Shown piece by piece: positions 249 to 39,916 of a DNA stretch of 40,024 nucleotides (position 1 is its first letter; each line of letters starts with the position of its first letter). The stretch comes from a virus (Duplodnaviria > Caudoviricetes), in IMG/VR virus record IMGVR_UViG_3300025451_000027, positions 1 to 40,024 of that record. One strand, written 5' to 3'. Both the position numbers and the translations under genes were made by a program. The notes under the pieces are model-generated. The model had not been told where the DNA came from. It searched no databases and saw only the letters and a program-made list of their open reading frames with translations.

Positions 249-249
249 C

Positions 250-1167: not shown

Positions 1168-1176
1168 GCGACCGCC

Positions 1177-1422
1177 ATGCGCACCGAGACGATCACCTGG
1201 AATGAATTGCCGGCCGACGGCGTGCCGGATGCCGACACGACTGTGCTGGTTGCGTTCAAGTTCAACGACGAGCCGGCCGTCGACACATCCGCCATCGACA
1301 CCTGGCCAGCTTGGTGGAGCGGCGAGCACTGGATGGACGCTGCTACGGGTGATCGCATGGAGCGCTGGGGCGACTGCAAGGTGGTGGCCTGGGCTGACAT
1401 GCCGGCGGGTGGCGCGGCATGA
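1177..1422 (+). CDS. Phage hypothetical protein (DUF551-like, W-rich)
   Basis: 81 aa, TW..LP...PD..VLV ... VVAWADMP pattern; coupled to the next gene. Confidence 0.6.
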   Translation: MRTETITWNELPADGVPDADTTVLVAFKFNDEPAVDTSAIDTWPAWWSGEHWMDAATGDRMERWGDCKVVAWADMPAGGAA

Positions 1423-2333: not shown

Positions 2334-2776
2334 GCCGCCACCGCAAGGCTCAGCCCGAGCTGCGCCCGGTCTACGCGCAGCCCAAGCTAGACCGGCGCGA
2401 CCGTGCCGCGGCGCGGGCCTTTCGCGAAGCCGCCTTCACCGGCGCCCGCCACCGCCCCGCGCCCGGCGACTTCGACCCGCTGCATCTGCGCCAGGGCATG
2501 CGTGCAAACGAGGTGCAGCAGCGCGCCGGCTGGGTGGTCAGCAATCCGCTGCTCGATCAGACCCTGGTGCGCAATCCAGGCCTTGACGCGAGCCTGCCAG
2601 GCTATGGCTGGCTGCGCATGGTCTACCGCTCGCGCTTCTGCGACCTGGTGTGCTTGCCGGGAACGCTGGCCGCGATCGAAAAGCAGGTTCCGGCCGAGAG
2701 GTCGGCCGCGATGCCTGCGCCTGCTGCGAGTGCAGTGACCGCAGTCGAGGTTGATCAGATGGAGATGTTTGCATGA
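2330..2776 (+). CDS. Hypothetical protein
   Basis: ATGA overlap with the MTase stop; MSRHRKAQ...QMEMFA. Confidence 0.55.
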   Translation: MSRHRKAQPELRPVYAQPKLDRRDRAAARAFREAAFTGARHRPAPGDFDPLHLRQGMRANEVQQRAGWVVSNPLLDQTLVRNPGLDASLPGYGWLRMVYRSRFCDLVCLPGTLAAIEKQVPAERSAAMPAPAASAVTAVEVDQMEMFA

Positions 2777-2828
2777 GCACCGGCCACATCACCTACCCAG
2801 CAGGATCCCTGGTGCGCGCGTCGGAGAT
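2773..2828 (+). pseudogene. N-terminus of an ORF (MSTGHITYPAGSLVRASEI) interrupted by the junction
   Basis: ATGA-coupled start at 2773; the sequence switches to the attC body at 2829. Confidence 0.45.
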
Positions 2829-2883
2829 CGTTGCCGGTAACCGGCTTGCCGAAGGCAAGTCCGGGTTGACCGGCCTGTTGGGC
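2829..2883 (-). other. attC A2, copy truncated at the crossover point
   Basis: Same as 39862-39916 but the CCATAA part is replaced by GGAGAT. Confidence 0.8.
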
Positions 2884-2991
2884 GGCCCTACCCGAAGCGA
2901 AAAGGACTGAGCATGAAGGACGAACTGCTGGTGCGTGCTGCACAGGCCAACGGCCACGCCTACCCGTGGACGATGCCGAACGGCTTTGGCG
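2829..2991 (+). repeat. Direct repeat copy 1 (163 bp; copy 2 at 39862-40024)
   Basis: Identical except G2864 vs A39897. Confidence 0.95.
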
Positions 2992-3272
2992 AGCGGCCGT
3001 GGAACCCGCTGACCAACAACGAGGACGCCTTGGTGCTGGCGGTGCGCATCGGGCTGCAGGTGACCGCGTACCCGATGTATGACGAGCCGAAGCATTCGGT
3101 GATCGTGCGCAAGCCGGTATGGGACCACGATGCGCAGGAAGGCGATGGCGTGGAAGTTGTCGAGCCCTACGGCACCGATGCGCTGGCGGCCACGCGCCGC
3201 GCCATCACGATGTGTGCTGCTGAGCTGGCACGCCGCAAGACGCCCAACGTCAATGGTGAGGCGACCACGTAG
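2913..3272 (+). CDS. Cassette gene, phage hypothetical protein
   Basis: WNPL....DAL.LAV.. and ATRRAI..AAE motifs common in phage accessory proteins; reads into the attC (NVNGEATT). Confidence 0.75.
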   Translation: MKDELLVRAAQANGHAYPWTMPNGFGERPWNPLTNNEDALVLAVRIGLQVTAYPMYDEPKHSVIVRKPVWDHDAQEGDGVEVVEPYGTDALAATRRAITMCAAELARRKTPNVNGEATT

Positions 3273-3343
3273 GCGCGCGCCGAGTTGTCCGGAAATCCCG
3301 GACGACTCACGCCGGAGTGGGTCGCCTCGACCTGGAGTTGGGC
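3242..3343 (-). other. attC A3 (102 bp, same as B2)
   Basis: GCCCAAC...GTTGGGC; stem GGTGAGGCGACC/GGTCGCCTCGACC with extra base; nested hairpin in the loop. Confidence 0.85.
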
Positions 3344-3367
3344 TGGTTCCGAAGCGAAGGAAAGACG

Positions 3368-3598
3368 ATGAGCGACTTTTACAACCCGCACGAAGACCGC
3401 ACGGCGCGCAAGGCTCACCGCTGCACCTACTGCGCCGAGCAGATTGCGGTTTGCGAACACTATGTGCACCAGACCGGCGTGTATGACGGCAAGTGGTACA
3501 CGAACAAGATGCACCCGGAGTGCTTCAAAGAGCTGTGCGACGAGGGAGAAGGTGAATTCACACCGTACAGCAACGAGCGGCCGAAGGCCGACGCCTAA
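3368..3598 (+). CDS. Cassette gene, small Cys/His (Zn-binding) protein
   Basis: ARKAHRCTYC...HPEC motif; stop TAA is part of GCCTAAC. Confidence 0.75.
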   Translation: MSDFYNPHEDRTARKAHRCTYCAEQIAVCEHYVHQTGVYDGKWYTNKMHPECFKELCDEGEGEFTPYSNERPKADA

Positions 3599-3694
3599 CG
3601 CTAGGTTAACCGGCCCGAAACGGCCCGAACAGGAGTATGCAAATGGAACAGACTAGCCCGGCCGTTTTGGGTCCGGTTGAACCGACAGTTATGC
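3593..3694 (-). other. attC A4 (102 bp; RBS and ATG of the next gene in its loop)
   Basis: GCCTAAC-6nt-GTTAACCGGCCC...GGGTCCGGTTGAAC-5nt-GTTATGC. Confidence 0.8.
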
Positions 3695-3993
3695 AGCACA
3701 CGCCGGGGCCGTGGAAGGCTAGTGTTTGCAACTCTGAGCGCTACAGCTACACCGTGGACGCGGCCGGGCCGTGGCCTTACAACCATGTTGCGCTGATACC
3801 TGAAATGTACGGGCCGCACTGCCTGACGCCTGGCGCACATGCTGCCAACGTGCGCTTGATCGAGGCCGCCCCTGACTTGCTGGCTGCGTGCCTGGCCCTG
3901 AAGGTCGCTGGCCCGCTTGGGCAGCGCGAATGGAACGCCGCTGCGGACATGATGGACGCGGCGATTGCCAAGGCTGTTGCAGGTGCTGCATAA
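3637..3993 (+). CDS. Cassette gene, phage hypothetical (HTPGPW...ANARLIAAAPDLL type)
   Basis: HTPGPW and ANVRLIEAAPDLL motifs; AGGAG RBS inside the attC. Confidence 0.75.
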   Translation: MQMEQTSPAVLGPVEPTVMQHTPGPWKASVCNSERYSYTVDAAGPWPYNHVALIPEMYGPHCLTPGAHAANVRLIEAAPDLLAACLALKVAGPLGQREWNAAADMMDAAIAKAVAGAA

Positions 3994-4047
3994 CCAATAA
4001 GTTAACCGGCGCCCGAATGGGCGTCCGAGTTGAACTGGCGGTTAGGC
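3988..4047 (-). other. attC A5 (60 bp, same as B6)
   Basis: GCATAAC CAATAA GTTAACCGGCGCCCGAATGGGCGTCCGAGTTGAAC TGGCG GTTAGGC. Confidence 0.9.
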
Positions 4048-4075
4048 GTGTGGGTGAGAAACAAGGAGAACGACG

Positions 4076-4321
4076 ATGGAAAAGTTTGAAGCGCTGAAGA
4101 AGGCCAAGGCATCGGAGCGGCATTACCCGTCCGACTACTGGGGCAACAACGACCCACGCTGCCCGCACTGCGGCCAGGAGTGCAAGGTGGCCGACAACGA
4201 GTGGTGGGAGCTGTACGAAGAAGGCGAGCACGAGGTTTCGTGCCCGCACTGCGACGGCGATTTCAGCGTGAGCACGAGGGTTAGCTACAGCTTTAGCACC
4301 GATGAGCAAGAAGACGCCTAA
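4076..4321 (+). CDS. Cassette gene, zinc-ribbon protein
   Basis: Two CPHC motifs; AAGGAG RBS; stop in GCCTAAC. Confidence 0.75.
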   Translation: MEKFEALKKAKASERHYPSDYWGNNDPRCPHCGQECKVADNEWWELYEEGEHEVSCPHCDGDFSVSTRVSYSFSTDEQEDA

Positions 4322-4388
4322 CGTTCGAGCTAACCGGACCGTGGAGGCCGAAGGCCGGAACGGGTCCGAGTTGAGCGAGTAGTTAGCC
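4316..4388 (-). other. attC A6 (73 bp)
   Basis: On the minus strand GGCTAAC TACTC GCTCAACTCGGAC...GTCCGGTTAGC TCGAAC GTTAGGC. Confidence 0.9.
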
Positions 4389-4416
4389 CGCCGCAACGAG
4401 AAGCGAGAGGACAGTG

Positions 4417-4851
4417 ATGAGCAAGGGATTCGCAGCGATTGCGCTGCACCAGCCGAAAGACCCGCTGAACGTGGGTGAGGTGCTGCGCGCTGCCGGGTGC
4501 TACGGCGCCGCGATGGTGGCCGCCAGTGGCGTGCGCTACCACCGCGCCCGTACCGACACGCAAGCGGCGCACCGACACCTGCCGCTGCTGACGTGCGACG
4601 ACTTGCGCGCCATGATCCCGCACGGGGCGGTTCCGGTGGCGGTTGACTTGATCGAAGGCGCGCAGGCCCTGCCTGGCTACAAGCACCCGCGCAGCGCGTT
4701 CTACGTGTTCGGACCCGAGGACGGCACGCTAGGACCCGAGGTGCTGGCCTGGTGCCGTGATGTGGTGTACGTGCCGACGCGCCACTGCATGAACTTGGCC
4801 GCCACGGTGAATGTGGTGCTTTACGACCGCGCCGCGAAACAAGCGGGCTAA
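4417..4851 (+). CDS. Cassette gene, SpoU/TrmH-family (SPOUT) RNA methyltransferase
   Basis: PKDPLNVGEVLRAAGCYG, YVFGPEDGTL, YVPTRHCMNLAATVNVVLYDR. Confidence 0.85.
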   Translation: MSKGFAAIALHQPKDPLNVGEVLRAAGCYGAAMVAASGVRYHRARTDTQAAHRHLPLLTCDDLRAMIPHGAVPVAVDLIEGAQALPGYKHPRSAFYVFGPEDGTLGPEVLAWCRDVVYVPTRHCMNLAATVNVVLYDRAAKQAG

Positions 4852-4947
4852 CGTCGAAGGTAACGCGCCTGGCGCGGCGCAAAAGACGCCAAATGAATAA
4901 CGGAAGCTCGCTCGCCGCGACAGGTCGCGTTGACCGCAGCTTTGCCG
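4846..4947 (-). other. attC A7, degenerate (R'' box damaged)
   Basis: GGCTAAC-6nt-GGTAACGCGCCTG...CAGGTCGCGTTGACC-5nt-TTTGCCG instead of GTTRRRY. Confidence 0.6.
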
Positions 4948-5160
4948 TTGCATGGCGGCCCGAGCCTGCTGCGATGGCATTACGACGATGACCGCAAGCC
5001 GACCAGCGTGCAGATCGGCGCGGACTACAACCACCTGCACGACACGCACTTCAGCAGCTACGCCACCGCCGATGACGCTTACGAGGTATTTGCTGACGCC
5101 GAGCGACTGTTTAACCACCTGGCAGAGATGGTGGCTACGGAGGCTGTTGGTGCTGCCTAA
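4930..5160 (+). pseudogene. Cassette gene, probably 5'-truncated
   Basis: No good start or RBS; stop TAA in GCCTAAC. Confidence 0.45.
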
Positions 5161-5177
5161 CGTGCTTTAGACAACAT
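5155..5177 (-). other. Putative attI-like entry site of array A
   Basis: Minus strand ...TGTCTAAAGCAC/GTTAGGC: core site with no palindromic partner, at the array boundary. Confidence 0.45.
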
Positions 5178-5210
5178 CAGAAGACTTTAAGCAATGCACA
5201 AGGGCAACCC

Positions 5211-24312: not shown

Positions 24313-24693
24313 TCAACGCTCCATCGTTGCAATCGCCCTGCGAGACATGGCACGTGGCACACGCTTGCGCAACTCTTCAAGCACTAGCACCAGCCCAGCC
24401 GCTGGCGACCATTGCTCACCATCAATCACCGCGCACCATTGATCGTTGCGCGGCCTGATTCCGTACTGTGTCGGCTTCGGCGCGTGCAACTCAATCTGCA
24501 CCAGCCGCCCGTGGATCCGCGCGTGGATGAAATCACCTGTAGGCGTTCCAGGCTTGCGCTCTGCCGGATAGATCGGCGGGTCTTGCGCCATCCGGCGAGC
24601 GTCATTTGATGCGTTGCGCATGGCAATGGCCTCGGGCCGATTTGCCTTCGTCCACTGCCTACATCTGCGGCGTCGAGTTTTGAAAGTTGACAT
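24313..24693 (-). CDS. Hypothetical protein
   Basis: 126-aa ORF at the end of the leftward operon. Confidence 0.55.
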   Translation of the reverse strand: MSTFKTRRRRCRQWTKANRPEAIAMRNASNDARRMAQDPPIYPAERKPGTPTGDFIHARIHGRLVQIELHAPKPTQYGIRPRNDQWCAVIDGEQWSPAAGLVLVLEELRKRVPRAMSRRAIATMER

Positions 24694-25069
24694 ATCGACT
24701 AGTTAGGCCATATAGGCGCCAAAGGTACGCCGCCCTGAATGCCTCATGCTCGGCCATTTCTTTGTCAAACATCGCTTGTGCTCCACCAAGAGCCCTAGCC
24801 TCGCCAATATCTGGCAGATGTCCAGGGCCTTCAAGCGTGTTCTCGATCCATGCCATCCCACTGCCAGGGCCGCGCAGCGCCCCATCAACCACAGCCGCGC
24901 GCATGGCGAGAATATGGCGGTGCATCACGTCTCCAAACATGATCGCCCGGCGCTCGCTGCTAGCCTCCGCCACTTCAATGCCCAGGGCAAATGCGGTCAG
25001 TTCACGGTCTGTCGGGTCAATACCGGGGAGCTTGCGCTTCCAGGCCGCGAGTATTTGGTCGTTTGTCAT
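24659..25069 (-). CDS. Cassette gene, hypothetical
   Basis: AAGGA RBS, MTNDQILAAW...; WI.NTL.GPG motif. Confidence 0.65.
   Translation of the reverse strand: MTNDQILAAWKRKLPGIDPTDRELTAFALGIEVAEASSERRAIMFGDVMHRHILAMRAAVVDGALRGPGSGMAWIENTLEGPGHLPDIGEARALGGAQAMFDKEMAEHEAFRAAYLWRLYGLTSRYVNFQNSTPQM
24686..24708 (+). other. Putative attI-like entry site of array B
   Basis: GTTGACATATCGACTA/GTTAGGC; the core matches R'' GCCTAAC of B1; no palindromic partner upstream. Confidence 0.4.
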
Positions 25070-25099
25070 TCCTTGTCCTTTCTGTTGCATCTATCACCA

Positions 25100-25166
25100 G
25101 CCTAACTACCGTTCGAGCTGACCCGCGCCGGCAAGCCGTCGCGGTCAGCTCAACTAGACGTTGGGC
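25100..25166 (+). other. attC B1 (67 bp)
   Basis: GCCTAAC TACC GTTCGAGCTGACC...GGTCAGCTCAAC TAGAC GTTGGGC. Confidence 0.9.
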
Positions 25167-25423
25167 CTCAAGGCCCGCAGATCGGGGCATGCCTGCTCGC
25201 ACACCTCCGCCAGCACTGCCGCAGTGATGTCGTCAAATGCTGTGTCTGACCTGCTCACGCGCCAGTGCACAGAACTAAGCGCAGAACGAAGCCGTGCAAT
25301 CTCTGCCGCAGCCTCGCGCATCAATCCTGCCGGTGTAGTAATGCCCATCAGATCGCACATGTCGGTCGAATCAATCAACCGCTTTTCAAGAGTGCTTCCA
25401 ATCGGGTCTGTGCAGCTTCCCAT
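25154..25423 (-). CDS. Cassette gene, hypothetical
   Basis: GGAGG RBS before ATG 25423; LMREAAAEIARLR motif. Confidence 0.65.
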   Translation of the reverse strand: MGSCTDPIGSTLEKRLIDSTDMCDLMGITTPAGLMREAAAEIARLRSALSSVHWRVSRSDTAFDDITAAVLAEVCEQACPDLRALRPNV

Positions 25424-25522
25424 GAGTCCTCCAATCGCCCGGCTGCGCCAGGCTTCAATGCACACGCTCAGCGCTGCGCGCTCAGCTTCCAGTTTTCTCA
25501 GCTTGGCCACGCCCCGGACACA

Positions 25523-25624
25523 GCCCAACTCCAGGTCGAGGCGACCCACTCCGGCGTGAGTCGTCCGGGATTTCCGGACAACTCGGCGCGCGCCTACGTG
25601 GTCGCCTCACCATTGACGTTAGCG
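25523..25624 (+). other. attC B2 (102 bp, reverse complement of A3)
   Basis: GCCCAAC...GTTAGCG; matches 3246-3345. Confidence 0.85.
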
Positions 25625-26340
25625 GTCATCAGTTGTTCGGCCAAGATGGCGAATGCAGCCGCTGCCACTCTTGGAACTTGTCCGTTTCCAATGGCTTTAA
25701 GTCGCTCCACCCCTGCGGCCACCCCATCAACCACTCCGACAATTCCGGGTTTATCCACCCTTCTACCGTTCCAAGTTCGGGGAGGTTTTTCCCATTCCGT
25801 AAGTTGCTGCCAAACCCCGATATAACTTTTCGGCCATCGCTCGCCTGCGGCGTGGCCCACAATCCAGATGCGGTCGCGTTGGTGGGGCGCTCCAGTGTTT
25901 CCGGCTGAAACACAAGTCCACGCCGCATCAAACCCCAGCTTGGCAAGGTCGCCCAAAACCACGGCAAGTCCTCGCTCCACAAGCAAAGGTGAGTTTTCCA
26001 CGAACACGAATCTAGGTCGTACTTCACCAATGATTCGCGCCATTTGATACCACATAGAACTTCTGTCGCCATCTATGCCCGCTCCTTTTCCTGCACTACT
26101 GATGTCCTGGCACGGAAACCCGCCCGAAACAACATCAACAATTCCTCTCCACGGGGTTCCATCAAAGGTTTGCACGTCATCCCATATCGGGAAAGGTTCC
26201 AAAACCTTGTCGTTTTGTCGCTGGGCAAGTACGCCTGCGGGGTAGGGTTCCCACTCAACGGCGCACACTGTTCGCCATCCGAGAAGTTTTCCCCCAAGTA
26301 TTCCGCCACCAGCGCCCGCGAAAAGAGCCAACTCATTCAT
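25594..26340 (-). CDS. Cassette gene, DNA cytosine-5 methyltransferase (alpha-type chain lacking motif IX)
   Basis: LFAGAGG, GGFPCQDIS, FVENSP, PHQRDRIW, LKAIGNGQVP. Confidence 0.88.
   Translation of the reverse strand: MNELALFAGAGGGILGGKLLGWRTVCAVEWEPYPAGVLAQRQNDKVLEPFPIWDDVQTFDGTPWRGIVDVVSGGFPCQDISSAGKGAGIDGDRSSMWYQMARIIGEVRPRFVFVENSPLLVERGLAVVLGDLAKLGFDAAWTCVSAGNTGAPHQRDRIWIVGHAAGERWPKSYIGVWQQLTEWEKPPRTWNGRRVDKPGIVGVVDGVAAGVERLKAIGNGQVPRVAAAAFAILAEQLMTANVNGEATT
25629..26072 (-). CDS. Nested alternative-frame ORF, putative beta chain of the MTase
   Basis: WATP.ASD and INPELSEWLMGWPQGWS (motif IX-like). Confidence 0.55.
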   Translation of the reverse strand: MATEVLCGIKWRESLVKYDLDSCSWKTHLCLWSEDLPWFWATLPSWGLMRRGLVFQPETLERPTNATASGLWATPQASDGRKVISGFGSNLRNGKNLPELGTVEGWINPELSEWLMGWPQGWSDLKPLETDKFQEWQRLHSPSWPNN

Positions 26341-26384
26341 TTCTCCTGTCCTCACCGTATCGCCAGCACCGACTTTTCAAAAAC

Positions 26385-26441
26385 CGCTAACACGTCGGTC
26401 AAGCGGACGGCTTTCAGCCGCCGCTTACCTTGTCGTTAGGG
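26385..26441 (+). other. attC B3 (57 bp)
   Basis: CGCTAAC ACGTC GGTCAAGC GGAC...GCC GCTTACC TTGTC GTTAGGG. Confidence 0.9.
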
Positions 26442-26615
26442 CGCTTCAGGCCCGCCAGCGTTGGGCTTCGTTGACATCGCTGCGGCAACCTTAGCCACAG
26501 CGTGCCAGCGTGCCCATTCGTCTGTTTCAGGCCCGCGCCACTGGCCGTGCTCGTCGTAGTAGTAGGCGCGACGCAGGGCATCTTCTAGTGGCGTGTTTGG
26601 TATCTCTTGCTTCAT
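26436..26615 (-). CDS. Cassette gene, 59-aa hypothetical (not in the ORF track)
   Basis: MKQEIPNTPLEDALRRAY...GGPEAP; ATGA-coupled; stop TAA in the B3 core. Confidence 0.55.
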   Translation of the reverse strand: MKQEIPNTPLEDALRRAYYYDEHGQWRGPETDEWARWHAVAKVAAAMSTKPNAGGPEAP

Positions 26616-27405
26616 ACCAACTCCAGCACTTCCTGTGCAATCCGTTGTTCCGCTATCGCGCAGTATTCCGGGTTCACCTCCAGACCGATGAACTGACGGC
26701 CCAACGTCTTCGCTGCCTTGGCAGTCGTGCCGCTGCCGCTGAAGGGGTCAAGCACCAGATCGCCGGGGTTGCTCCAAGTGGCTACGTGGTCGCGGGCCAG
26801 GTCAAACGGGAACGGGGCCGGGTGGTCGCTCTTGTCTTCTGCTGCCTGCTGGCTCGCCAATCCCAAGTCCCATACGTTCGTGCGCAGGCCCAGGTCGCCA
26901 ATCTGCACAATGCGCCCCGTGTCTTTGCTGCCGTACTTCTCTGCCCGGCCGCCACTCGTCCCGGCGCGGCTTGTGCCGGCGCTCTTGTTCACACGGTCGG
27001 CCAGCCTGTTGCTTGTCTTTGGCTTGCCCTTTGTCACCACAAACATGAACTCAGCACTCTGCGGGTAAGCGTCGTTGTTGCCGTTCGCACCAGCCGGGGG
27101 CTTGTTCCAAATCATCGTGTCCAGCAGGTTCAGCCCCAGCCGCTTGAAGTGCAGCGCCTGCTCCATGCTGCTGCCCGTCTCGCTGCCGTCCTTCGTGGCG
27201 TCGGCCACTACCCACACGATCACGCCGCCAGGCTTCAGCACGCGCTTCAGGTGCCACGCCACGCCGAAGAAGTCCCAGCTATGCCGCCGTAGGTGCGCAA
27301 GTCGTCATAGGGCGGGCTCGTCACCACCAAATCAACGCTCTCGCGTGGCATCTTGCCCAGCAAGTCGCAGTTGTCGCCGCAGTGAATCTGGTTCAGTTCA
27401 AGCAT
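26612..27405 (-). pseudogene. Cassette gene, N4-C/N6-A DNA methyltransferase (beta class) with a 1-nt frameshift near 27283
   Basis: VTSPPY in one frame, HPAPFP and DPFSGSGTT in the other; GGCATAGC would read G-H-S with one more C. Confidence 0.8.
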
Positions 27406-27435
27406 GCACACATCCTCTCGTTTCTCAACCATGCG

Positions 27436-27504
27436 CCCTAACATGTCAGTCAACCGGAATTGCCCCGGCAGGCCGGGTCAATCCGGTTACCGGCCACGTT
27501 AGTC
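27436..27504 (+). other. attC B4 (69 bp)
   Basis: CCCTAAC ATGTC AGTCAACCGGAATTG...CAATCCGGTTACC GGCCAC GTTAGTC. Confidence 0.88.
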
Positions 27505-27666
27505 GCTTGGCTCACGCACCCGGTCCAGCCAGTCGCGCAGCCGCTGGTGGCCTATCCGTGTGAGCTTGGCTTTTTGGGCATCGTTCAAACGAACTGGCAC
27601 AGGGTTGAGCTTTTCACCGGGGGCCTTTGCAGGCCGCCCGGTTTTCTTGGCGGCCGGTTCGCTCAC
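27499..27666 (-). CDS. Cassette gene, 55-aa GRP/ribbon-helix-helix-like DNA-binding protein (not in the ORF track)
   Basis: MSEPAAKKTGRPAKAPGEKLNPVPVRLNDAQKAKLTRIGHQRLRDWLDRVREPSD; GTGA-coupled; stop in the B4 core. Confidence 0.6.
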   Translation of the reverse strand: MSEPAAKKTGRPAKAPGEKLNPVPVRLNDAQKAKLTRIGHQRLRDWLDRVREPSD

Positions 27667-27839
27667 TTGACTTTGACCGCGACCAGTTCGGACTCGTGAC
27701 CCATCACAGCCTCGGCATCAGCCTTGCTTTCGTAGCCCGCATCCTTGCAGGCGGCTTCGATTGCTGCTTCCTGGCTGTCGGCTTCGTACACGCCGAAAGA
27801 GTGGGCCGACTTGCTGTTGCTGACTTCGTACTTGCTCAT
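27663..27839 (-). CDS. Cassette gene, small acidic hypothetical protein
   Basis: AGGAG RBS; MSKYEVSN...FGVYEADS..AAIEA...DAGY. Confidence 0.65.
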   Translation of the reverse strand: MSKYEVSNSKSAHSFGVYEADSQEAAIEAACKDAGYESKADAEAVMGHESELVAVKVK

Positions 27840-27882
27840 GTTGCTCTCCTGGGTTGCTGCGGCGTCTTGCTGCAGTGGTGTT

Positions 27883-27921
27883 AATGTAATACCGCAACGG
27901 CAAGCACGCAAGCACTTTTTT
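27883..27921 (-). promoter_or_regulatory. Sigma70-like promoter inside a cassette
   Basis: A-tract, TTGCGT-17nt-TACATT. Confidence 0.65.
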
Positions 27922-27936
27922 GTAACACCAAAACGC

Positions 27937-28002
27937 GCCTAACACTTCGTTCCAGCGGACGTGCCGCTGGCGCGGCCCGCGCGCTGAACTCAAGCGTTAG
28001 GC
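27937..28002 (+). other. attC B5 (66 bp)
   Basis: GCCTAAC ACTTC GTTCCAGC GGAC...GCTGAAC TCAAGC GTTAGGC: canonical architecture. Confidence 0.92.
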
Positions 28003-28004
28003 AA

Positions 28005-28277
28005 CTAGGCGTGCCACTTGCTGATTGCGCGCGACAGTTCTTCGCGCCCGATGCCTTCGCGCAAGGCATCTTCTTCAAGGCTCTTACGCACGGCATGAGC
28101 ATTGCGGTTAATCAGCGCCATCTCTCGCGGGTTCGCCGGAATGATTCCGTCTTTTCCCATCGGGCCTGTGCAAACCGTCTGGTCATAGGCTTCGCATTCC
28201 GTGTGGTAGCGAGTTGCCATTTCATGCAGCCGGTTGTCGCGCTCTGTGGGTTTCCACTCTTGCTGCCATTCGTTCAT
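28005..28277 (-). CDS. Cassette gene, hypothetical
   Basis: GGAGA RBS; MNEWQQEW...CEAYDQTVCTG. Confidence 0.65.
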   Translation of the reverse strand: MNEWQQEWKPTERDNRLHEMATRYHTECEAYDQTVCTGPMGKDGIIPANPREMALINRNAHAVRKSLEEDALREGIGREELSRAISKWHA

Positions 28278-28297
28278 GCTTCTCTCCGAAAATCGTT

Positions 28298-28357
28298 GCC
28301 TAACCGCCAGTTCAACTCGGACGCCCATTCGGGCGCCGGTTAACTTATTGGTTAGGC
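28298..28357 (+). other. attC B6 (60 bp, reverse complement of A5)
   Basis: Matches 3991-4047. Confidence 0.9.
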
Positions 28358-28358
28358 G

Positions 28359-28631
28359 TCATCGGTCTTCAGGCTCGACCCAGAGCTGATCGGCTGTATA
28401 TGCGCTCTGCAAGAGCTTCGCAAAATCCATCAGGCCGTATCCCTCTTCTGGTGTTCCGCGCTGCGGGTACGCGATGGACCGCGCAATGTTTCTCAGCCTC
28501 AAGTTTTCGGCGTGCAACTCAAGAATGTCTGCCTTTGCGTCTTGCAGCGCAAACATTACTGCCGGCGCGCTCTGGTTGTGCGCCATTGCCTTTGGGTCGC
28601 AGACCCTCCAGGTCTCAATACTTCGCTTCAT
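28359..28631 (-). CDS. Cassette gene, hypothetical
   Basis: GAGGGG RBS; MKRSIETWRVCDPKAM... Confidence 0.65.
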   Translation of the reverse strand: MKRSIETWRVCDPKAMAHNQSAPAVMFALQDAKADILELHAENLRLRNIARSIAYPQRGTPEEGYGLMDFAKLLQSAYTADQLWVEPEDR

Positions 28632-28672
28632 GTCATTCCCCTCTGTTGGCCCTTCTGTTTGTTGCGCGTAAC

Positions 28673-28729
28673 GCCTAACCGTTCGCTCAAGCGGACGGCT
28701 ACGCCGCGCGCTTAGCTGTTTGGTTAGGC
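28673..28729 (+). other. attC B7 (57 bp)
   Basis: GCCTAAC CGTTC GCTCAAGC GGAC...GCTTAGC TGTTTG GTTAGGC. Confidence 0.92.
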
Positions 28730-28966
28730 CCGTTTGTTCCAGCGCCGAATCGCGCAGTCCATGTAGGCGCCTGTCCCGCGCTCGTCGGCGCTGTCCTGTC
28801 CGTCCTTCACGCTTGGGGCTACGGCGCACCGGCTGCTGGCGCAGTACACCTTGCCCCAGGCGTTGCCCTCCTCGTCGGGGTTCTGAGGCGCCAGCTTCGG
28901 TTTGGTGCCACAAAACGGGCATGGCAGCGGCACCAGCTTGGGTTTCAGTTGCTTCTCACGCATCAT
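28724..28966 (-). CDS. Cassette gene, Lar-family (restriction alleviation) zinc-finger protein
   Basis: LPCPFCG...VYC...C...AIRRWNKRA. Confidence 0.75.
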   Translation of the reverse strand: MMREKQLKPKLVPLPCPFCGTKPKLAPQNPDEEGNAWGKVYCASSRCAVAPSVKDGQDSADERGTGAYMDCAIRRWNKRA

Positions 28967-28985
28967 CTCGCTCCGGTTACAACGG

Positions 28986-29039
28986 GCCTAACCCGTCATT
29001 CGAGCCGACCGTTCCGGCGGCTCAATTCCCACGTTAGGC
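28986..29039 (+). other. attC B8 (54 bp)
   Basis: GCCTAAC CCGTC ATTCGAGC CGAC...CG GCTCAAT TCCCAC GTTAGGC. Confidence 0.9.
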
Positions 29040-29363
29040 ATCACGAATACGCGCCGCCAGCATCGCGGCATCAATCAGCGCGTCCATGCTATCGGCTGGT
29101 GCGTGCTGGGTGCCGCCTTCTGCGAGCGAGTGCGTTGCGCTGAATTCCGTGCCGTCCATGCGCTTCCACACGTTCGGCTGTTTCTCGCTTCTCAGCGTCA
29201 GGCCCTGGCGGCTTTTCAGCCAGCGGTAACGTGCCGCATCCTTCTCAAGCGCCGCCTGTCGCGCTTCTGCGCGTTGCGGACACGTCCGCCCAACTGCTTG
29301 GTCGAGGCGACCCCCAACAGCAGGGGCGTCCTGTGGCGTATCGGTAGCAGTTTTGTCGTTCAT
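29034..29363 (-). CDS. Cassette gene, phage hypothetical (DAARYRWL...DALIDAAM type)
   Basis: Motifs as named; the start lies inside attC B9. Confidence 0.7.
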   Translation of the reverse strand: MNDKTATDTPQDAPAVGGRLDQAVGRTCPQRAEARQAALEKDAARYRWLKSRQGLTLRSEKQPNVWKRMDGTEFSATHSLAEGGTQHAPADSMDALIDAAMLAARIRDA

Positions 29364-29408
29364 GTGTTTCCTCGTGCTGTCGGGGTCGCCTCACCGCGAA
29401 CGTTAGGC
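29288..29408 (+). other. attC B9 (121 bp; RBS and ATG in the loop)
   Basis: GCCCAAC TGCTT GGTCGAGGCGACCCC...GGGGTCGCCTCACC GCGAAC GTTAGGC. Confidence 0.85.
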
Positions 29409-29777
29409 CTCTCGCACGCGGGCCAGCAAAGTGCCTGGCTTTGCAATGCGGCTGCCAATCTCGCGCATGTGCTGCGAGTACACGGCTGGCTCGCACTCAC
29501 GGACTAGCGCGCGCAGCCGGTCGGACTTCACCTCTGCGTCCAGCAACGCGTTGTTCAGCGTCAGCACCTGGTCGGCCAGTTCCAACGTGTCGGCCTCGTC
29601 GTACAGGGCGCGCATAGTCTCAACGGCCCCGCACGAACTACACCAACTGTCGCCGGGCGTAAGGCCCTCGCTGGTGCTGGTGTGGCCGCATCGGCTGCAC
29701 TTCCACGCGACAGGCCTAACAGGCCGCTGCACCGGCCCTGCGTCGGCGCGGCTGCTCTTGCTCGCTTCGTCACTCAT
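29403..29777 (-). CDS. Cassette gene, zinc-ribbon plus coiled-coil hypothetical
   Basis: CSRC...CSSC; the start lies inside attC B10. Confidence 0.7.
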   Translation of the reverse strand: MSDEASKSSRADAGPVQRPVRPVAWKCSRCGHTSTSEGLTPGDSWCSSCGAVETMRALYDEADTLELADQVLTLNNALLDAEVKSDRLRALVRECEPAVYSQHMREIGSRIAKPGTLLARVREA

Positions 29778-29815
29778 GGCTCGCGCCTCCTTGTCCGGTG
29801 AGCTTTGCGTTAGAA
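29714..29815 (+). other. attC B10 (102 bp; RBS and ATG in the loop)
   Basis: GCCTAAC AGGCC GCTGCACCGG...CCGGTGAGC TTTGC GTTAGAA. Confidence 0.75.
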
Positions 29816-30056: not shown

Positions 30057-30637
30057 TGAAGGCCAAGGGCCAGTTCCTTGACCGACTCGCCAGCTAGGCG
30101 AAGGGCATCAGACTTGGCCGGAAGCGTGGGCATGAACTCTTGTGCACGTTCATACGAAATCCGGCCCTTGTCCACCGCGTCGATAAGGGCTGATTCCCGC
30201 CCTCGAACGTCATGGCCTAGGGTGATGGTCCACTTCACTGCGACACCCCTATCCCTGGCCTGATTAACCATGCGCAAATAGGTCTCCTTGAACGCCATGC
30301 GTGCCTCAACCATCGCGCCAGCATCAATGAGCCCGACCGCCACGCCAAAGGCCTGCGACATTTCCGTCGTCCAAACGGCGCTATCGCCTTCGTTGTGAGG
30401 CAGCATTGCCCAAGCTTCCTCGACGCCAGGCCGCCCATCGTCAAGGCGGCTGACTACGTCCTTGATCGTCAAGGCCCCGCGCACTTCCTTGCGGCATCGC
30501 ACCAGCGCGCCAAGCACTTGTTCTTCTGGGTAGGCGCTAAGGTCGCCAACAAACACGCGGGCGGCGGCTTCTGAGAATGTCCGCCCACACAGCTCGCTAG
30601 TCACGGCGATAGCTCGGATGAGTTCAGGACTTGGCAT
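30053..30637 (-). CDS. Replication protein P-like / helicase loader
   Basis: Directly after the initiator; GRPGVEEAWA, ARMAFKE.Y motifs. Confidence 0.6.
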   Translation of the reverse strand: MPSPELIRAIAVTSELCGRTFSEAAARVFVGDLSAYPEEQVLGALVRCRKEVRGALTIKDVVSRLDDGRPGVEEAWAMLPHNEGDSAVWTTEMSQAFGVAVGLIDAGAMVEARMAFKETYLRMVNQARDRGVAVKWTITLGHDVRGRESALIDAVDKGRISYERAQEFMPTLPAKSDALRLAGESVKELALGLQ

Positions 30638-31730
30638 TGGCGTACTCCATCTCTGCTGCGGCCAACAGCCCATCAAAGGCATTGGCGTTGGTTTGCGTTC
30701 TGTCGGCCTGTTGGGCCTGTGTTCTGGTCACCTGCCGACCTGTTGCCCATTCGGTGCGCAGCTTCTCCGCGTCACGCAGCAGCAGGTTCGTCGGGTGCAT
30801 CGCCGCAACGTACAGGCCGTTTTGGCTTTTGACGAAATGGGCCGCGACAAACGGCGCCTCCGCTGCGCCCAGCTTCCCCACCAATTGCGCCAAGTGGGCG
30901 TTGACGCTGGCGTTTCGCACCGGAGGGACGCTGTACCGTCGCTCATAGGCCTCCGAGTACGAGGCCCACACAGCGGCCGAATCTGGCGCTGGCTTGGCTC
31001 CGCGTTTTCGCGGGGCCTTGCCGGAAAGCGCCGCAGGCGCAACTGAGGAATCAGGAATCAGTGGTGAGGAATCAGGAATCAAGGAATCAGGAATCAAGGA
31101 ATCAGGAATCAAGGAATCAGATGGACAAGAAGCGCCATCGTTGGCTTGACGTTGCATCAACGTTGATTCAATGACAGTCTTTCGGTAGTCCTTAGTTGCC
31201 CCGCCTTTGGCTGAATTACAAGATGTGCATAGCGTTTGCAAGTTCGTGATTGCGTTGTCTCCGCCTTGCGAAAGCGAGACGATGTGGTCAATCGACAATG
31301 AGTCCTTGGTTCCGCAACGAAGGCACTTCATCCCATCGCGGGAAAATACTGATGAACGCACATCGGGGCTTACGTCATAAGCATGTCGAGTCACCTGTGG
31401 TGATCCTGGCGGCGCCGGGATATCGCTCGGCACTTCCTTGTGATGCGGCATCTGATGTTTGATGAAATTGACGATCTGCACGTACTTTCTTCCGTCAACC
31501 TCATAGCGAACCAAGAACCCGCTTGATGCAAGCTGGTCAAGGCTGTCTGAGACCGAAAAATCGTCGGCCGCGAACAGTTCCATCTTGATCTTTTTCGGCC
31601 TGTCCTCGAACCTGCCCTCACGGTCTGCAATGCACCACAGCCCGATAAAAAGGAGCCGTGTTTCTGGTGAAAGCTCCGCAAGAATTTCGTTCTTGAAGAA
31701 GCCCGGCTTGATGTTTCTCGAACGCGCCAT
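30624..31730 (-). CDS. Replication initiator (O/DnaT-like) with an internal HNH domain
   Basis: MARSRNIKPGFF, LFIGLW..ADREGR, I.NF.KHQ; internal RDG..C..CG...IDHI....GG...NLQTLC..CN..KG. Confidence 0.8.
   Translation of the reverse strand: MARSRNIKPGFFKNEILAELSPETRLLFIGLWCIADREGRFEDRPKKIKMELFAADDFSVSDSLDQLASSGFLVRYEVDGRKYVQIVNFIKHQMPHHKEVPSDIPAPPGSPQVTRHAYDVSPDVRSSVFSRDGMKCLRCGTKDSLSIDHIVSLSQGGDNAITNLQTLCTSCNSAKGGATKDYRKTVIESTLMQRQANDGASCPSDSLIPDSLIPDSLIPDSSPLIPDSSVAPAALSGKAPRKRGAKPAPDSAAVWASYSEAYERRYSVPPVRNASVNAHLAQLVGKLGAAEAPFVAAHFVKSQNGLYVAAMHPTNLLLRDAEKLRTEWATGRQVTRTQAQQADRTQTNANAFDGLLAAAEMEYANAKS
31047..31119. repeat. Nine GGAATCA heptamers (15-bp period), candidate origin iterons
   Basis: Tandem repeats inside the initiator gene encoding (DSLIP)n; lambdoid origins lie within gene O. 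Confidence 0.65.
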
Positions 31731-32871: not shown

Positions 32872-32945
32872 TGGAGCGGGGGCCGGGAGTCGAACCCGGG
32901 TAGTCGGCTTGGAAGGCCGAGGCATAACCGCTCTGCCACGCCCGC
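32872..32945 (-). tRNA. tRNA-Gly (anticodon TCC), CCA encoded
   Basis: GCGGGCG TGGCAGAGCGGTTATGC C TCGGC CTTCCAA GCCGA CTAC CCGGG TTCGACT CCCGG CCCCCGC T CCA; one C-C mismatch in the acceptor stem. Confidence 0.88.
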
Positions 32946-36855: not shown

Positions 36856-37040
36856 TCACCGCCGCACACCTTGACCATGCCCAGCGCGCAAAGCGGCTGC
36901 ACGGCACGCCGCTTCATGTGCTGCTGCTGAGCAGTGGCGCCATGACCGGCCCATACCGCAGGGCGCGGCCCGTGACGGTAAGCCTGTTCTCGCGTCTTCT
37001 GCGCCAGCTGCGCGCGCATCAATTCAAGGTGAAGCCATGA
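36852..37040 (+). CDS. Small hypothetical protein
   Basis: Coupled to both neighbours. Confidence 0.45.
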   Translation: MITAAHLDHAQRAKRLHGTPLHVLLLSSGAMTGPYRRARPVTVSLFSRLLRQLRAHQFKVKP

Positions 37041-37681
37041 GCATGATTCACAGTTCAATCAAGTCGGCAATGGCTGAGATCGCAAGGACAGGCATTGCAA
37101 AGATCAGCCGCAACAAGGACCAGAGCTATAACTTTCGCGGCATTGAAGCAGCAATGAATGAGATGTGCCCGGTGTTGATCCGCGCCGGGATCATCGTTAG
37201 CCCGTCCTACAGCGAGCTGACCGTGCACGAACGCCAGAGCAAGAGCGGCGGAACTCTGCGGTTTGTGATGCTGAAAGGGTCATTCAAGTTCGAGGCCGAG
37301 GACGGATCGTTCGTGATCGGCGAAGCCTACGGCGAAGGCATGGATTCATCCGACAAGGCCACGACCAAGGCGCAGTCAGTGGCCTTCCGGACTGCGTTGT
37401 TTCAGCAGTTCATTGTCCCGACGATGGCAATTGATCCAGAGAGCGGCCTTGGAGTTCCGACGCGCGACGAAGAACTCGAAGAAATCGCGGCATCTGCTGT
37501 TGATAAGTTTGAGGCTGGCAACGAGTACGGCGCCTATGAAGAAGTCTCGTGCATCACCGATTCAGAGGAACAGCTTAAGTTGTGGTCTTTGCTGAAGCCG
37601 CATTCAAAGCTGCGCGCATCGATCAAGTCCCATGCTGCGCAAGAGCGAGCAAACCAAGACGCACTGGCGGGCAAGAAGTGA
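37037..37681 (+). CDS. ERF-family single-strand annealing protein
   Basis: N..Q.YNFRGIE, GEGMDSSDKATTKAQSVAFR.AL. Confidence 0.8.
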   Translation: MSMIHSSIKSAMAEIARTGIAKISRNKDQSYNFRGIEAAMNEMCPVLIRAGIIVSPSYSELTVHERQSKSGGTLRFVMLKGSFKFEAEDGSFVIGEAYGEGMDSSDKATTKAQSVAFRTALFQQFIVPTMAIDPESGLGVPTRDEELEEIAASAVDKFEAGNEYGAYEEVSCITDSEEQLKLWSLLKPHSKLRASIKSHAAQERANQDALAGKK

Positions 37682-38489: not shown

Positions 38490-38699
38490 ATGATGGAACT
38501 TCTGCAACTGGATGGCGAAGGCGTCGAGATCGGGGACATGCACGCCGATGCGCTGGCGAAGTTTGCCGGGATGCCCGCGCTGAGCGTGCAGCTCAGTGAC
38601 GGTCGGGTTGTTGTTCTGATCGGCATGACGCGCGAGGAATGCAAGGCTTGCTTGCCTGCGTTTTTGGCGCCTGCGCGGATTAAGGTGTGCGGTGTTTAA
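38490..38699 (+). CDS. Cassette gene, hypothetical (start uncertain)
   Basis: Stop TAA in GTTTAAC. Confidence 0.5.
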   Translation: MMELLQLDGEGVEIGDMHADALAKFAGMPALSVQLSDGRVVVLIGMTREECKACLPAFLAPARIKVCGV

Positions 38700-38813
38700 C
38701 GTTGGAGGTGAGCTGACGTTGGCAGCGCGCGCCGAAACATGAACACAGAAGAAATTCACATGGACAAAGAACCTTCCCCGCTGGCAACGGTCAGCTCGAC
38801 CGACGGGTTAGGC
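38694..38813 (-). other. attC A1 (120 bp; ATG in the loop)
   Basis: GTTTAAC-6nt-GGTGAGCTGACGTTG...CAACGGTCAGCTCGACC-5nt-GTTAGGC. Confidence 0.8.
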
Positions 38814-39089
38814 CTGGCCCCGGAGCGTGCCGAAGACGCGCACGCAGAGCACTGGCAAGCGCTGGTGCGGGCATCGAACGCCATAGCACGCAGCCCGCAG
38901 TGTGGCCCAGAGCAGGCGCGCGAGTTTTGCGCTGCGGTAGATCGCCTATCGGCTGCGCTGATGCGCGGCGATGAGCCGGCCTACACCGCAGACCAGATCG
39001 CCGATGCCTGCATGGCGGCCGAGATACCCGACAGCAAGTTTGAGAGCCTGCTGATTGCATTGCGGGCCTACCAGAGAGGAAACCGATGA
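38739..39089 (+). CDS. Cassette gene, hypothetical
   Basis: Starts within attC A1 (ATG 38739 or 38760). Confidence 0.6.
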   Translation: MNTEEIHMDKEPSPLATVSSTDGLGLAPERAEDAHAEHWQALVRASNAIARSPQCGPEQAREFCAAVDRLSAALMRGDEPAYTADQIADACMAAEIPDSKFESLLIALRAYQRGNR

Positions 39090-39394
39090 ACTGGATCAAG
39101 CAATTCTTTTGCGCACACCGCTATGAGTGGGCGCGCAACATCTACGGCGATGAAATCAACGCTTGCAGCATGCTCTACGGAGCCGCCCGCCGCGCTGCGC
39201 GTGCCCTTGGACATGAACCGATTTACACGTACACGCTGCCCGACGAAGGCGGTGCCAGCTTGCGAGCCGCTGGATTTAGGCTCGACAAAGAGGACGCGGG
39301 CGGAAGCGCCGCGATGTGGCACAGCCGGCCTGGCCGCACTGCTGAACCCGTAGGCGATGACCTTGTTGGCGGCAAATGGAGGTGGATTGGATGA
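39086..39394 (+). CDS. Chimeric ORF with an XF1762-like C-terminus
   Basis: NACSMLYGAA.RAA.ALG....TYTL..E.GASLRAAG. Confidence 0.55.
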   Translation: MNWIKQFFCAHRYEWARNIYGDEINACSMLYGAARRAARALGHEPIYTYTLPDEGGASLRAAGFRLDKEDAGGSAAMWHSRPGRTAEPVGDDLVGGKWRWIG

Positions 39395-39861
39395 GCAGAG
39401 AAGCATGGGGCGATCCGCCCGAACCACAAGCCCCGCGCTGCCCGGTGTGCGACGGCACAGAGCACACCAACGACTGCGAGCTTGGCGAGGAAATGGCGAA
39501 GAGGCAGCAATGCGAGCGAGAGCTTGCCGAGTGGCGCGAACTGGCGCTGTCTCAGGCCGGCGACGCTGGGCTGTTGGCGCGGATGGTGAAGGCCGAGACG
39601 GAATCCGCGCTCTTGGGCGCGGAGGTAGACCGATTGCAAAAAGAACTCGACAGCGCCGGCTTGGCTCGGACGGTGGCCGACGTGGTGAAGCGCGACGCCT
39701 ACCGCTTCCGCAAACTGCTGATGCAGGGCTCACACTGGCTCGGCGTGTTCCGGTGTGACCCTGACGGAACCCCATCCGACAGCATCAGCACCGACGAGCT
39801 GAGCGCGCTACTCGACGCGATGCACGGGCCAGAAATGCCGCCCGTACCTGAAGCGCCATAA
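39391..39861 (+). CDS. Hypothetical zinc-finger/coiled-coil protein
   Basis: CPVC....H..DC; DA.RFR motif; stop TAA in CCATAAC. Confidence 0.6.
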   Translation: MSREAWGDPPEPQAPRCPVCDGTEHTNDCELGEEMAKRQQCERELAEWRELALSQAGDAGLLARMVKAETESALLGAEVDRLQKELDSAGLARTVADVVKRDAYRFRKLLMQGSHWLGVFRCDPDGTPSDSISTDELSALLDAMHGPEMPPVPEAP

Positions 39862-39916
39862 CGTTGCCGGTAACCGGCTTGCCGAAGGCAAGTCCGAGTT
39901 GACCGGCCTGTTGGGC
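39856..39916 (-). other. attC A2 (61 bp, intact copy)
   Basis: CCATAAC GTTGCC GGTAACCGGCTTGCCGAAGGCAAGTCCGAGTTGACC GGCCT GTTGGGC. Confidence 0.88.

What the first reader, a model, noticed from the sequence alone, without database searches (positions are those of the whole stretch)
24686..29815. Phage-borne integron-like cassette array B (10 attC sites, no integrase)
Seen: ten imperfect palindromes at 25100, 25523, 26385, 27436, 27937, 28298, 28673, 28986, 29288 and 29714. They are 54-121 bp and follow R''(RYYYAAC)-~5nt-L''(extra base)...L'-5/6nt-R'(GTTRRRY), each separating one or two small ORFs. Established: this is the attC architecture recombined by IntI tyrosine recombinases. Seen: no tyrosine recombinase in the closed 37-kb genome, and the cargo is typical phage accessory genes (MTases, Lar, zinc fingers), not host-type cassettes. 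Inference: the phage shuffles its accessory genome with integron chemistry, using a host IntI in trans.
Basis: partly seen in the sequence, partly recalled or inferred. Interest (0 to 1): 0.95.

Follow-up and report, generated by a model that had tools for sequence, protein, structure and literature searches.

The report
Phage array of back-to-front integron cassettes
A phage with no detectable site-specific recombinase carries ten small gene units separated by integron-type DNA hairpins, with every gene facing backwards compared with bacterial integrons; close relatives differ exactly at these hairpins, so the phage likely borrows a host integron integrase to swap accessory genes.

Summary
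All ten attC-like sites lie at the stated coordinates. A model built from bacterial attC sites next to intI genes scores all ten on one strand (8 of 10 above 30 bits), and shuffles give about 0.03 sites. No IntI or other site-specific recombinase was found. A near-identical relative gains or swaps units exactly at the G|TT crossover of three sites, including a clean 454-bp insertion. (1) Every gene is inverted relative to attC polarity: 39 of 39 callable viral contigs are inverted, against 2 of 23 callable bacterial contigs, and both of those are prophage-like. (2) The array ends in a ~34-bp non-hairpin site at 24675-24708, shared by five other viral contigs, that behaves as an attI. (3) Identical attC heads front different genes. 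Phage CALINs are published (Qi 2023); I did not find the inversion in print. This scan has reported inverted phage arrays before on other DNA (18 notes). Recombination of these sites by IntI, and the host as its source, are inferred, not shown. Verdict: real; new variant of a known kind.

The parts
24675..24708 (+). attI-like terminal insertion site: R box GTTAGGC 24702-24708 (crossover after G24702), 5-bp spacer, inverted box 24690-24696; no hairpin
   Evidence: 91-97% identical over 32-36 bp in five other viral contigs, each next to an attC array, with different adjacent cassettes. Run X4 diverges at 24709. Scores poorly on a 9-site bacterial attI matrix (rank 420 of 573). Box assignment is by eye.
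24703..25160 (-). Cassette B1: 136-aa ORF (ATG 25069, reads through the terminal site to 24659) headed by attC 25100-25166 (4-nt R''-L'' spacer)
   Evidence: 35.1 bits; homologues 57-69% identical in viral arrays L101, L112, L128, L163, L179
25161..25618 (-). Cassette B2: 89-aa ORF (ATG 25423) headed by attC 25523-25624 (4-nt spacer; weakest site), whose 100-bp core is an exact inverted copy of the array A site at 3246-3345
   Evidence: (13.9 bits)
25619..26435 (-). Cassette B3: C5-cytosine DNA methyltransferase (ATG 26340, 248 aa) with two overlapping alternative-frame ORFs; attC 26385-26441
   Evidence: PF00145 E 4e-31; (52.5 bits)
26436..27498 (-). Cassette B4: N6/N4 DNA methyltransferase split by a frameshift near 27250-27290, plus a 59-aa ORF; attC 27436-27504
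   Evidence: PF01555 E 1e-38, and phrog_67 on both pieces; (33.6 bits); indels here in other runs
27499..27996 (-). Cassette B5: two small ORFs (58 aa from 27839; 55 aa at 27666-27499) behind an AT-rich promoter-like stretch shared with other phages; attC 27937-28002
   Evidence: (55 bits). The promoter is by eye only; the consensus scan did not report it.
27997..28351 (-). Cassette B6: 90-aa ORF (phrog_27964); attC 28298-28357, 57 bp exactly repeated in array A at 3991-4047
   Evidence: (32.8 bits)
28352..28723 (-). Cassette B7: 90-aa ORF (ATG 28631); attC 28673-28729
   Evidence: 41 bits; replaced by another cassette at this crossover in L002
28724..29033 (-). Cassette B8: Lar-like restriction alleviation protein (80 aa); attC 28986-29039
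   Evidence: PF14354 E 3e-8; (58.1 bits); L002 has a 454-bp unit inserted at its crossover
29034..29402 (-). Cassette B9: 109-aa ORF whose RBS and ATG (29363) lie inside the loop of attC 29288-29408; the same gene body has another attC head in L002
   Evidence: (30.9 bits); loose end at 29277 in run X4
29403..29809 (-). Cassette B10: 124-aa ORF with a CxxC-CxxC zinc-ribbon-like motif, ATG (29777) inside attC 29714-29815
   Evidence: (below Pfam cut-off); (17.7 bits)
38694..39916 (+). Array A, first part: sister array downstream of ssb, same inverted layout (attC 38694-38813 and 39856-39916)
2829..5180 (+). Array A, second part (continues the circle): attC at 3242, 3593, 3988, 4316 and 4846, ending in a second non-hairpin site at 5155-5180 before the terminase module
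   Evidence: L013 has another cassette at the same crossover; rank 16 of 573 on the attI matrix
30624..31730 (-). Replication-initiator gene with AGGAATC repeats (31046-31120), candidate origin upstream of array B
   Evidence: origin function inferred
37037..37681 (+). Erf-like single-strand annealing protein (relevant to the rival mechanism)
   Evidence: phrog_155 E 4e-16

Best explanation
This is an array of ten attC-bounded units in a phage early operon, each gene inverted so that its attC sits at the gene's 5' end, and it is likely shuffled by an integron integrase (IntI) supplied in trans, probably by the host. Shown: attC architecture and strand polarity; inversion of all genes; gain and exchange of units at the G|TT crossover in relatives; a conserved non-hairpin terminal site where the adjacent cassette varies; no site-specific recombinase detected in the genome. 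Inferred: IntI excises cassettes (attC x attC) and inserts them at the terminal site or at internal attC sites while phage genomes share a cell; the genes are read from the phage early promoter at the far end of the array, towards the attI-like site, so no Pc promoter is needed. [quoted passage not shown] The cargo (methyltransferases, Lar) would counter host restriction.
For: Architecture and strand-specific scores. L002, 99.8% identical across the replication module, diverges right after AA|C at B9 and B7 and has a 454-bp unit inserted exactly at the B8 crossover. Of 70 viral site pairs sharing an attC at 88% or more, 8 share only the R''-side flank, 0 only the R'-side flank, 62 neither. Terminal site shared by 5 viral contigs, with different neighbours at the crossover in L381, L383 and L384; L101 continues with a further attC where its twin L128 ends. 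Polarity by RBS+ATG: 39 inverted, 0 canonical, 12 no call among 51 viral contigs; 21 canonical, 2 inverted, 26 no call among 49 bacterial contigs. IntI above cut-off in 80 of 201 genomes of the likely host family. 5 of 6 tested phage attC sites recombined with IntI1 in PMC9892861.
Against: No recombination assay was run. The host is not identified: the only leads are an SSB 78.7% identical over 108 aa to a Methylibium plasmid SSB and 38-43% relatives of one protein in 4 of 301 genomes. The terminal site does not fit a matrix from 9 bacterial attI candidates (rank 420 of 573) and was not found beyond chance in 401 genomes, so no cognate intI is known. B1 and B2 have 4-nt spacers; B2 and B10 score under 20 bits and may be inactive. 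No joint in the possible source run X1 showed a precisely excised cassette. 4 of 9 pairs sharing the R''-side flank have different attC heads, which IntI alone does not explain. GC skew supports the origin only weakly (sign change near 31 kb, but detrended minimum at 37,027). Phage TJE1 has canonical polarity, so the inversion is not universal in phages.
Confidence: 0.68

Rival explanations
1. Same chemistry, but IntI comes mainly from a co-infecting phage or resident prophage that carries its own intI, making this a phage-to-phage system in which the host integron plays little part.
For: 2 of the 125 viral pattern loci carry a full IntI (L121 425 bits, L178 507 bits). In L178 intI directly follows the last inverted cassette gene in the same direction, ahead of excisionase and integrase. 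The terminal site was found in viral contigs but not in 401 bacterial genomes.
Against: Most loci had at most 3 kb flanks, so the true share of phage IntI is unknown. Chromosomal IntI is common in the likely host family. No IntI near the shared terminal site or in 5 partial records.
Confidence: 0.14
2. The hairpins act as homology linkers: the phage's Erf single-strand annealing protein swaps modules at the shared repeats and IntI is not involved today.
For: The phage encodes Erf. L003 joins 29841 to 5229 across a ~12-bp microhomology with no array (L009 shows the same join). Exact 100-bp and 57-bp repeats exist between arrays A and B.
Against: In L002 the exchanges sit at the 7-bp R' box and the attC bodies beyond it differ. 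Linkage is one-sided, 8 versus 0. The extrahelical base and strand polarity are kept although the sequences diverge.
Confidence: 0.1
3. A relic: a block captured once from a chromosomal integron, now decaying or kept as operon punctuation (hairpins in the mRNA).
For: B2 and B10 are weak, B1 and B2 have short spacers, and the B4 MTase is frameshifted.
Against: Polarity is opposite to chromosomal arrays. Cargo homologues were found in viral loci, with only two weak hits in bacterial loci. Near-identical relatives differ by whole cassettes.
Confidence: 0.08

Closest known systems
CALINs (clusters of attC sites lacking an integron-integrase) in phage genomes; Qi et al. 2023, PMC9892861
   Same: attC arrays without intI in phages, with orphan DNA methyltransferase cargo; 5 of 6 tested sites recombined with IntI1. 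One listed phage, MW202573, is inverted like this one in my test (4 of 4 sites).
   Different: The phage CALINs in the paper's Table S1 have 2-4 sites and TJE1 has 3; here there are 10, plus a sister array of 7 full sites. The paper does not remark on gene-versus-attC inversion and shows no cassette polymorphism among relatives. TJE1 is canonical (3 of 3 sites).
Sedentary chromosomal integrons of Beta- and Gammaproteobacteria (intI-attI-cassette array)
   Same: Same attC fold, R and L boxes and extrahelical bases; a model trained on them recognises the sites; crossover at G|TT; a fixed terminal insertion site.
   Different: No intI and no Pc; genes are antisense to attC polarity with RBS and start on the R'' side or inside the loop; cargo is phage-type; the terminal site is unlike the 9 bacterial attI candidates sampled.
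attG insertion of cassettes at GWT sites; Loot et al., bioRxiv 10.1101/2022.09.11.507474
   Same: At window 2828/2829 an attC of the array A family sits at a G|AT junction inside a gene of another phage-like element.
   Different: A natural phage target rather than an E. coli chromosome; a single case, read from assembled contigs.
Phage module exchange at shared intergenic linkers (lambdoid boundary sequences, T4-type PeSL cassettes; recalled, not searched)
   Same: Repeated elements head small accessory genes and mark exchange points.
   Different: Those are thought to recombine by homology; here the junctions are base-exact at an integrase cleavage motif.

Membership tests
attC site | R''/R' boxes with conserved AAC/GTT and complementary L''/L' boxes | tested here: met
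   10 of 10
attC site | Bottom-strand hairpin with extrahelical G, giving strand polarity | tested here: met
   Folds; minus strand 13.9-58.1 bits versus at most 11.9 on the plus strand
attC site | 5-nt R''-L'' spacer and 5-6-nt L'-R' spacer | tested here: inconclusive
   Met in 8 of 10; B1 and B2 have 4 nt. Such spacers occur in 2 of 238 bacterial and 6 of 256 viral sites.
attC site | Passes the IntegronFinder or HattCI model threshold | not testable with these tools
   Those models are not available and Rfam gave no match. My own model was used instead.
attC site | Recombined by IntI as a folded bottom strand | not testable with these tools
   Needs an assay; indirect support from crossover-exact junctions
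CALIN | Two or more attC sites within a few kb, same orientation | tested here: met
   10 sites in 4.7 kb, all top strand +
CALIN | No integron integrase nearby | tested here: met
   0 matches for TIGR02249 and PF00589 in the whole record and with my IntI profile
Canonical integron gene cassette | ORF upstream of attC on the top strand (ORF, then R''...R') | tested here: not met
   All ten units have their ORFs on the opposite strand
Canonical integron gene cassette | Unit moves with boundaries at G|TTRRRY | tested here: met
Complete integron | intI gene adjacent to attI | tested here: not met
Complete integron | attI: non-hairpin site with R box, inverted L box and cassette turnover at the crossover | tested here: inconclusive
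   Behaviour and conservation fit; the sequence matrix does not
Complete integron | Pc promoter upstream of attI reading into the array | tested here: not met
   Genes face towards the terminal site. The one consensus hit (24205, + strand; 1 found, 2.8 expected by chance) would read antisense to them.

The most novel reading that the evidence does not exclude
Phages keep their own mirror-image cassette pool: attC sites serve as portable gene heads (hairpin plus RBS, sometimes the start codon), phage-specific attI sites move between unrelated phages, and IntI borrowed in trans shuffles anti-restriction genes between co-infecting genomes. Because identical heads are re-joined to new gene bodies and cassettes can land at GWT sites, these arrays would be a place where new cassettes are assembled by DNA recombination alone, a testable route for the open question of cassette origin. 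The polarity would also keep phage cassettes silent in host integrons and host defence cassettes silent in phage arrays.
Probability: 0.35. Interest if true: 0.9.

Novelty: new variant of a known kind. Interest (0 to 1): 0.72.

Why it matters
Integrons are seen as a bacterial adaptation device, and published phage examples read mostly as captured fragments. Here a phage lineage uses the chemistry on its own genes, with its own polarity and insertion site, and relatives differ by whole cassettes. If IntI dependence is confirmed, host integrons would double as recombinases for phage counter-defence genes, and attC-primed cassette surveys would be sampling a phage pool. The same attC head on different genes, and the same gene under different heads, give direct material for testing how cassettes are made.

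Tried and rejected
Rfam scan of the window gave only a tRNA at 32875-32945. blastn of the array against 50,697 phage records gave 35 records, nearly all methyltransferase matches, none covering 80%. Top-strand (R'') insertion as the cause of the inversion (PMC5027507) was rejected by reasoning: it flips the whole cassette but leaves the gene on the attC top strand, whereas here the sense strand is the bottom strand. The ORF-length polarity test was noisy (viral 77 inverted, 35 canonical, 49 unclear of 161; bacterial 122 canonical, 18 inverted, 39 unclear of 179), so the RBS+ATG test was preferred. The attI matrix failed on the array B terminus. A search for that terminus in 401 genomes gave 2 matches at 3 mismatches against 5 for the reversed control. 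The promoter and terminator scan was at or below chance. My model found nothing in P12002L; PH101 was not examined. Homologue search of the 209-aa protein next to the replication gene named no host. Contigs laid on the region (4 of 21 listed runs) showed no clean excision joint in X1; the skips seen in X2, X4 and X5 have sides under 30 letters and were not used. My early note that L004 and L013 form one continuous array was dropped because they share only one 133-bp site.
Full report
Setting. The record is a 40,024-base viral contig. Bases 2829-39861 form a 37,033-bp circle closed by a 163-bp repeat. It encodes terminase, portal, capsid, lysis, a replication initiator, a Cro-like regulator, helicase, Erf and SSB. 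Bases 1-2828 are more GC-rich and have depth 5-8 against about 40 in run X1, which may be the source sample. They are another phage-like element joined through a shared attC.

All ten sites are present. Two scanners of mine each found 9 of 10; the miss, 25523-25624, has a 4-nt spacer. 300 shuffles gave a mean of 0.03 sites, maximum 1. I built a covariance model from 32 of the 38 distinct attC sites on bacterial loci that carry intI, leaving out 6 long ones. It scored all ten sites on the minus strand: 58.1, 55, 52.5, 41, 35.1, 33.6, 32.8, 30.9, 17.7 and 13.9 bits, against at most 11.9 on the other strand and 10.9 outside the arrays. Caveat: those bacterial loci were reached through a pattern drawn from this phage and picked by my scanner, so the model is not fully independent, and it is not IntegronFinder's. 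Bottom strands fold with the extrahelical G; z is -2.7 or lower for 8 of 10. No tyrosine or serine recombinase family matched the record, while the controls rang.

The genes face backwards. In integrons the gene lies upstream of R'' on the top strand, which lets it be read from Pc (PMC5027507, passages). Here the top strand is + and the genes are on minus, fixed independently by Pfam and PHROG hits for both methyltransferases, Lar and the B6 protein. RBS and ATG lie 20-100 bp beyond R'' in 8 units and inside the attC loop in B9 and B10; several stop codons are the TAA of the next R' box. Array A has the same inverted layout. To see whether this is general I scanned viral contigs (125 loci; the scan stopped at 38 of 64 parts) and bacterial genomes (139 stretches; 3 of 64 parts) with one pattern. 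Among sites with at least 600 bp of flank, an RBS+ATG test called 73 inverted, 0 canonical and 88 unclear of 161 viral sites, and 39 canonical, 6 inverted and 134 unclear of 179 bacterial sites. By contig: 39, 0 and 12 of 51 viral; 21 canonical, 2 inverted and 26 unclear of 49 bacterial (Fisher p 1.4e-14; the contigs are not phylogenetically independent). The two bacterial exceptions are a prophage with integrase, excisionase, Erf and SSB (L258) and a phage-like locus (L283).

Units move at the crossover. L002 is 99.8% identical over 32460-29401. It diverges right after AA|C at B9, carries a 454-bp attC+ORF unit inserted exactly at the B8 crossover, and has a different cassette after the B7 crossover. 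Across viral loci, 70 pairs share an attC at 88% or more: 8 also share only the R''-side flank, 0 only the R'-side flank, 62 neither. All 6 pairs sharing the R'-side flank have different attC sites. This one-sided linkage is what IntI cleavage predicts and homologous exchange does not.

The array has a fixed end. Left of G24702 lies a non-hairpin stretch of about 34 bp. An exact 22-letter pattern found it in 5 other viral contigs (L382 and L385 are near twins). Each lies next to an attC array of the same polarity, and L381, L383 and L384 have different cassettes abutting the crossover. L101 matches L128 up to this point and then continues with a further attC. A 20.6-kb contig of run X4, from another study, covers 4316-24709 and then diverges. 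This is attI behaviour, and by eye there is an inverted box 5 bp from the R box. Against this, a matrix from 9 bacterial attI candidates ranks it 420 of 573, it was not found beyond chance in 401 genomes, and no intI lies near it in those contigs.

Heads are re-used. The B2 and B6 attC sites have exact 100-bp and 57-bp copies in array A that front different genes, and the B9 gene body has a different attC head and N-terminus in L002. 4 of 9 pairs sharing a gene-start flank have different heads. IntI crossovers do not make these joints; illegitimate or Erf-type recombination probably does, and L003 shows a microhomology join that lacks the whole array. At 2828/2829 an attC sits at a G|AT junction inside a gene of the second element, matching the GWT target of attG insertion (bioRxiv 10.1101/2022.09.11.507474, passages). 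Together these suggest a DNA-only way to make new cassettes. That step is inference.

Who supplies the enzyme. The host is unknown. SSB is 78.7% identical over 108 aa to a Methylibium plasmid SSB, pointing to Burkholderiales. In the family of an Aquabacterium genome (G016), 80 of 201 genomes have IntI above the TIGR02249 cut-off. IntI is SOS-inducible and phage infection can induce SOS (PMC8946536, passages). But 2 viral loci carry their own IntI, and in L178 it follows the inverted cassette genes in the same direction, so a helper phage is a live alternative. On why the genes are inverted: they must follow the phage early operon, and with a fork from the candidate origin near 31,050 the bottom strand would lie on the lagging-strand template, which favours excision (PMC5371416, passages). 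Skew evidence for that origin is weak.

Prior knowledge. Qi et al. 2023 (PMC9892861; I read the main text, parts 1-4 of 7, which end in the reference list, and part 1 of 2 of the supplement) found 17 CALINs among 10,705 phage genomes, with methyltransferase cargo, and 5 of 6 tested sites recombined with IntI1. A term search of the paper found no remark on gene-versus-attC inversion; its figures and Dryad file were not seen. Testing three of its phages: TJE1 is canonical (3 sites), MW202573 is inverted (4 sites), and P12002L gave no hit. Nine literature searches (listings only) showed no paper on inverted phage cassettes; the library lacks most subscription journals. This scan's notes hold 18 similar findings on other genomes (8 shown) and none on this genome or stretch. 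I had noted the inversion before looking. These notes are not independent evidence.

Verdict. The array is a real CALIN by the features I could test. It is not a canonical cassette array, because polarity fails, and not a complete integron. It works like an integron array whose integrase comes from elsewhere (confidence about 0.68 for host IntI, 0.82 for any IntI in trans). New variant of a known kind; interest 0.72.

Noticed in passing
window 1-2828 and junction 2828/2829: A second, GC-richer phage-like element (DUF2303 protein, C5 methyltransferase) at about one sixth of the depth, joined through an attC that differs by one base from the array A copy and sits at a G|AT site inside a short ORF; looks like a natural attG-type insertion.
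   Followed up: partly
window 29841 and 5229/5400; L003, L007, L009: In three relatives the replication module leads to the terminase module, whereas here it leads to array B and the lysis genes: the early region is flipped. L003 and L009 have no array at that join, which in L003 falls at a ~12-bp microhomology.
   Followed up: partly
window 3246-3345 / 25521-25620 and 3991-4047 / 28298-28354: Exact 100-bp and 57-bp inverted repeats between arrays A and B could invert the early region; the assembly across the 100-bp repeat was not bridged by any listed contig.
   Followed up: partly
L178:834-2949; L121:1-1035: Viral contigs with their own IntI at the end of an inverted array; in L178 the order is cassette genes, intI, excisionase, phage integrase.
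   Followed up: partly
window 25594-26340: The C5 methyltransferase covers only Pfam positions 4-168 of 324 and overlaps two alternative-frame ORFs (26336-26073, 26072-25629) that are also open in relatives; reminiscent of two-polypeptide methyltransferases (recalled).
   Followed up: no
window 27836-27936: AT-rich promoter-like stretch inside cassette B5, shared at 82-95% with unrelated viral arrays (L116, L131, L382, L383); it may restart transcription mid-array.
   Followed up: no
window 4414-4851: A SpoU-family RNA methyltransferase (PF00588, E 5e-16) carried as a cassette in array A.
   Followed up: no
window 32875-32945: A tRNA-like gene in the early region (Rfam, 56 bits), skipped in some relatives.
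   Followed up: no
L010:4218-7515: A relative has about 3.3 kb inserted right after the portal gene.
   Followed up: no
L227:3268-5728: A bacterial locus with 14 pattern matches, the listed ones spaced mostly 296 bp apart, suggesting one cassette repeated in tandem.
   Followed up: no
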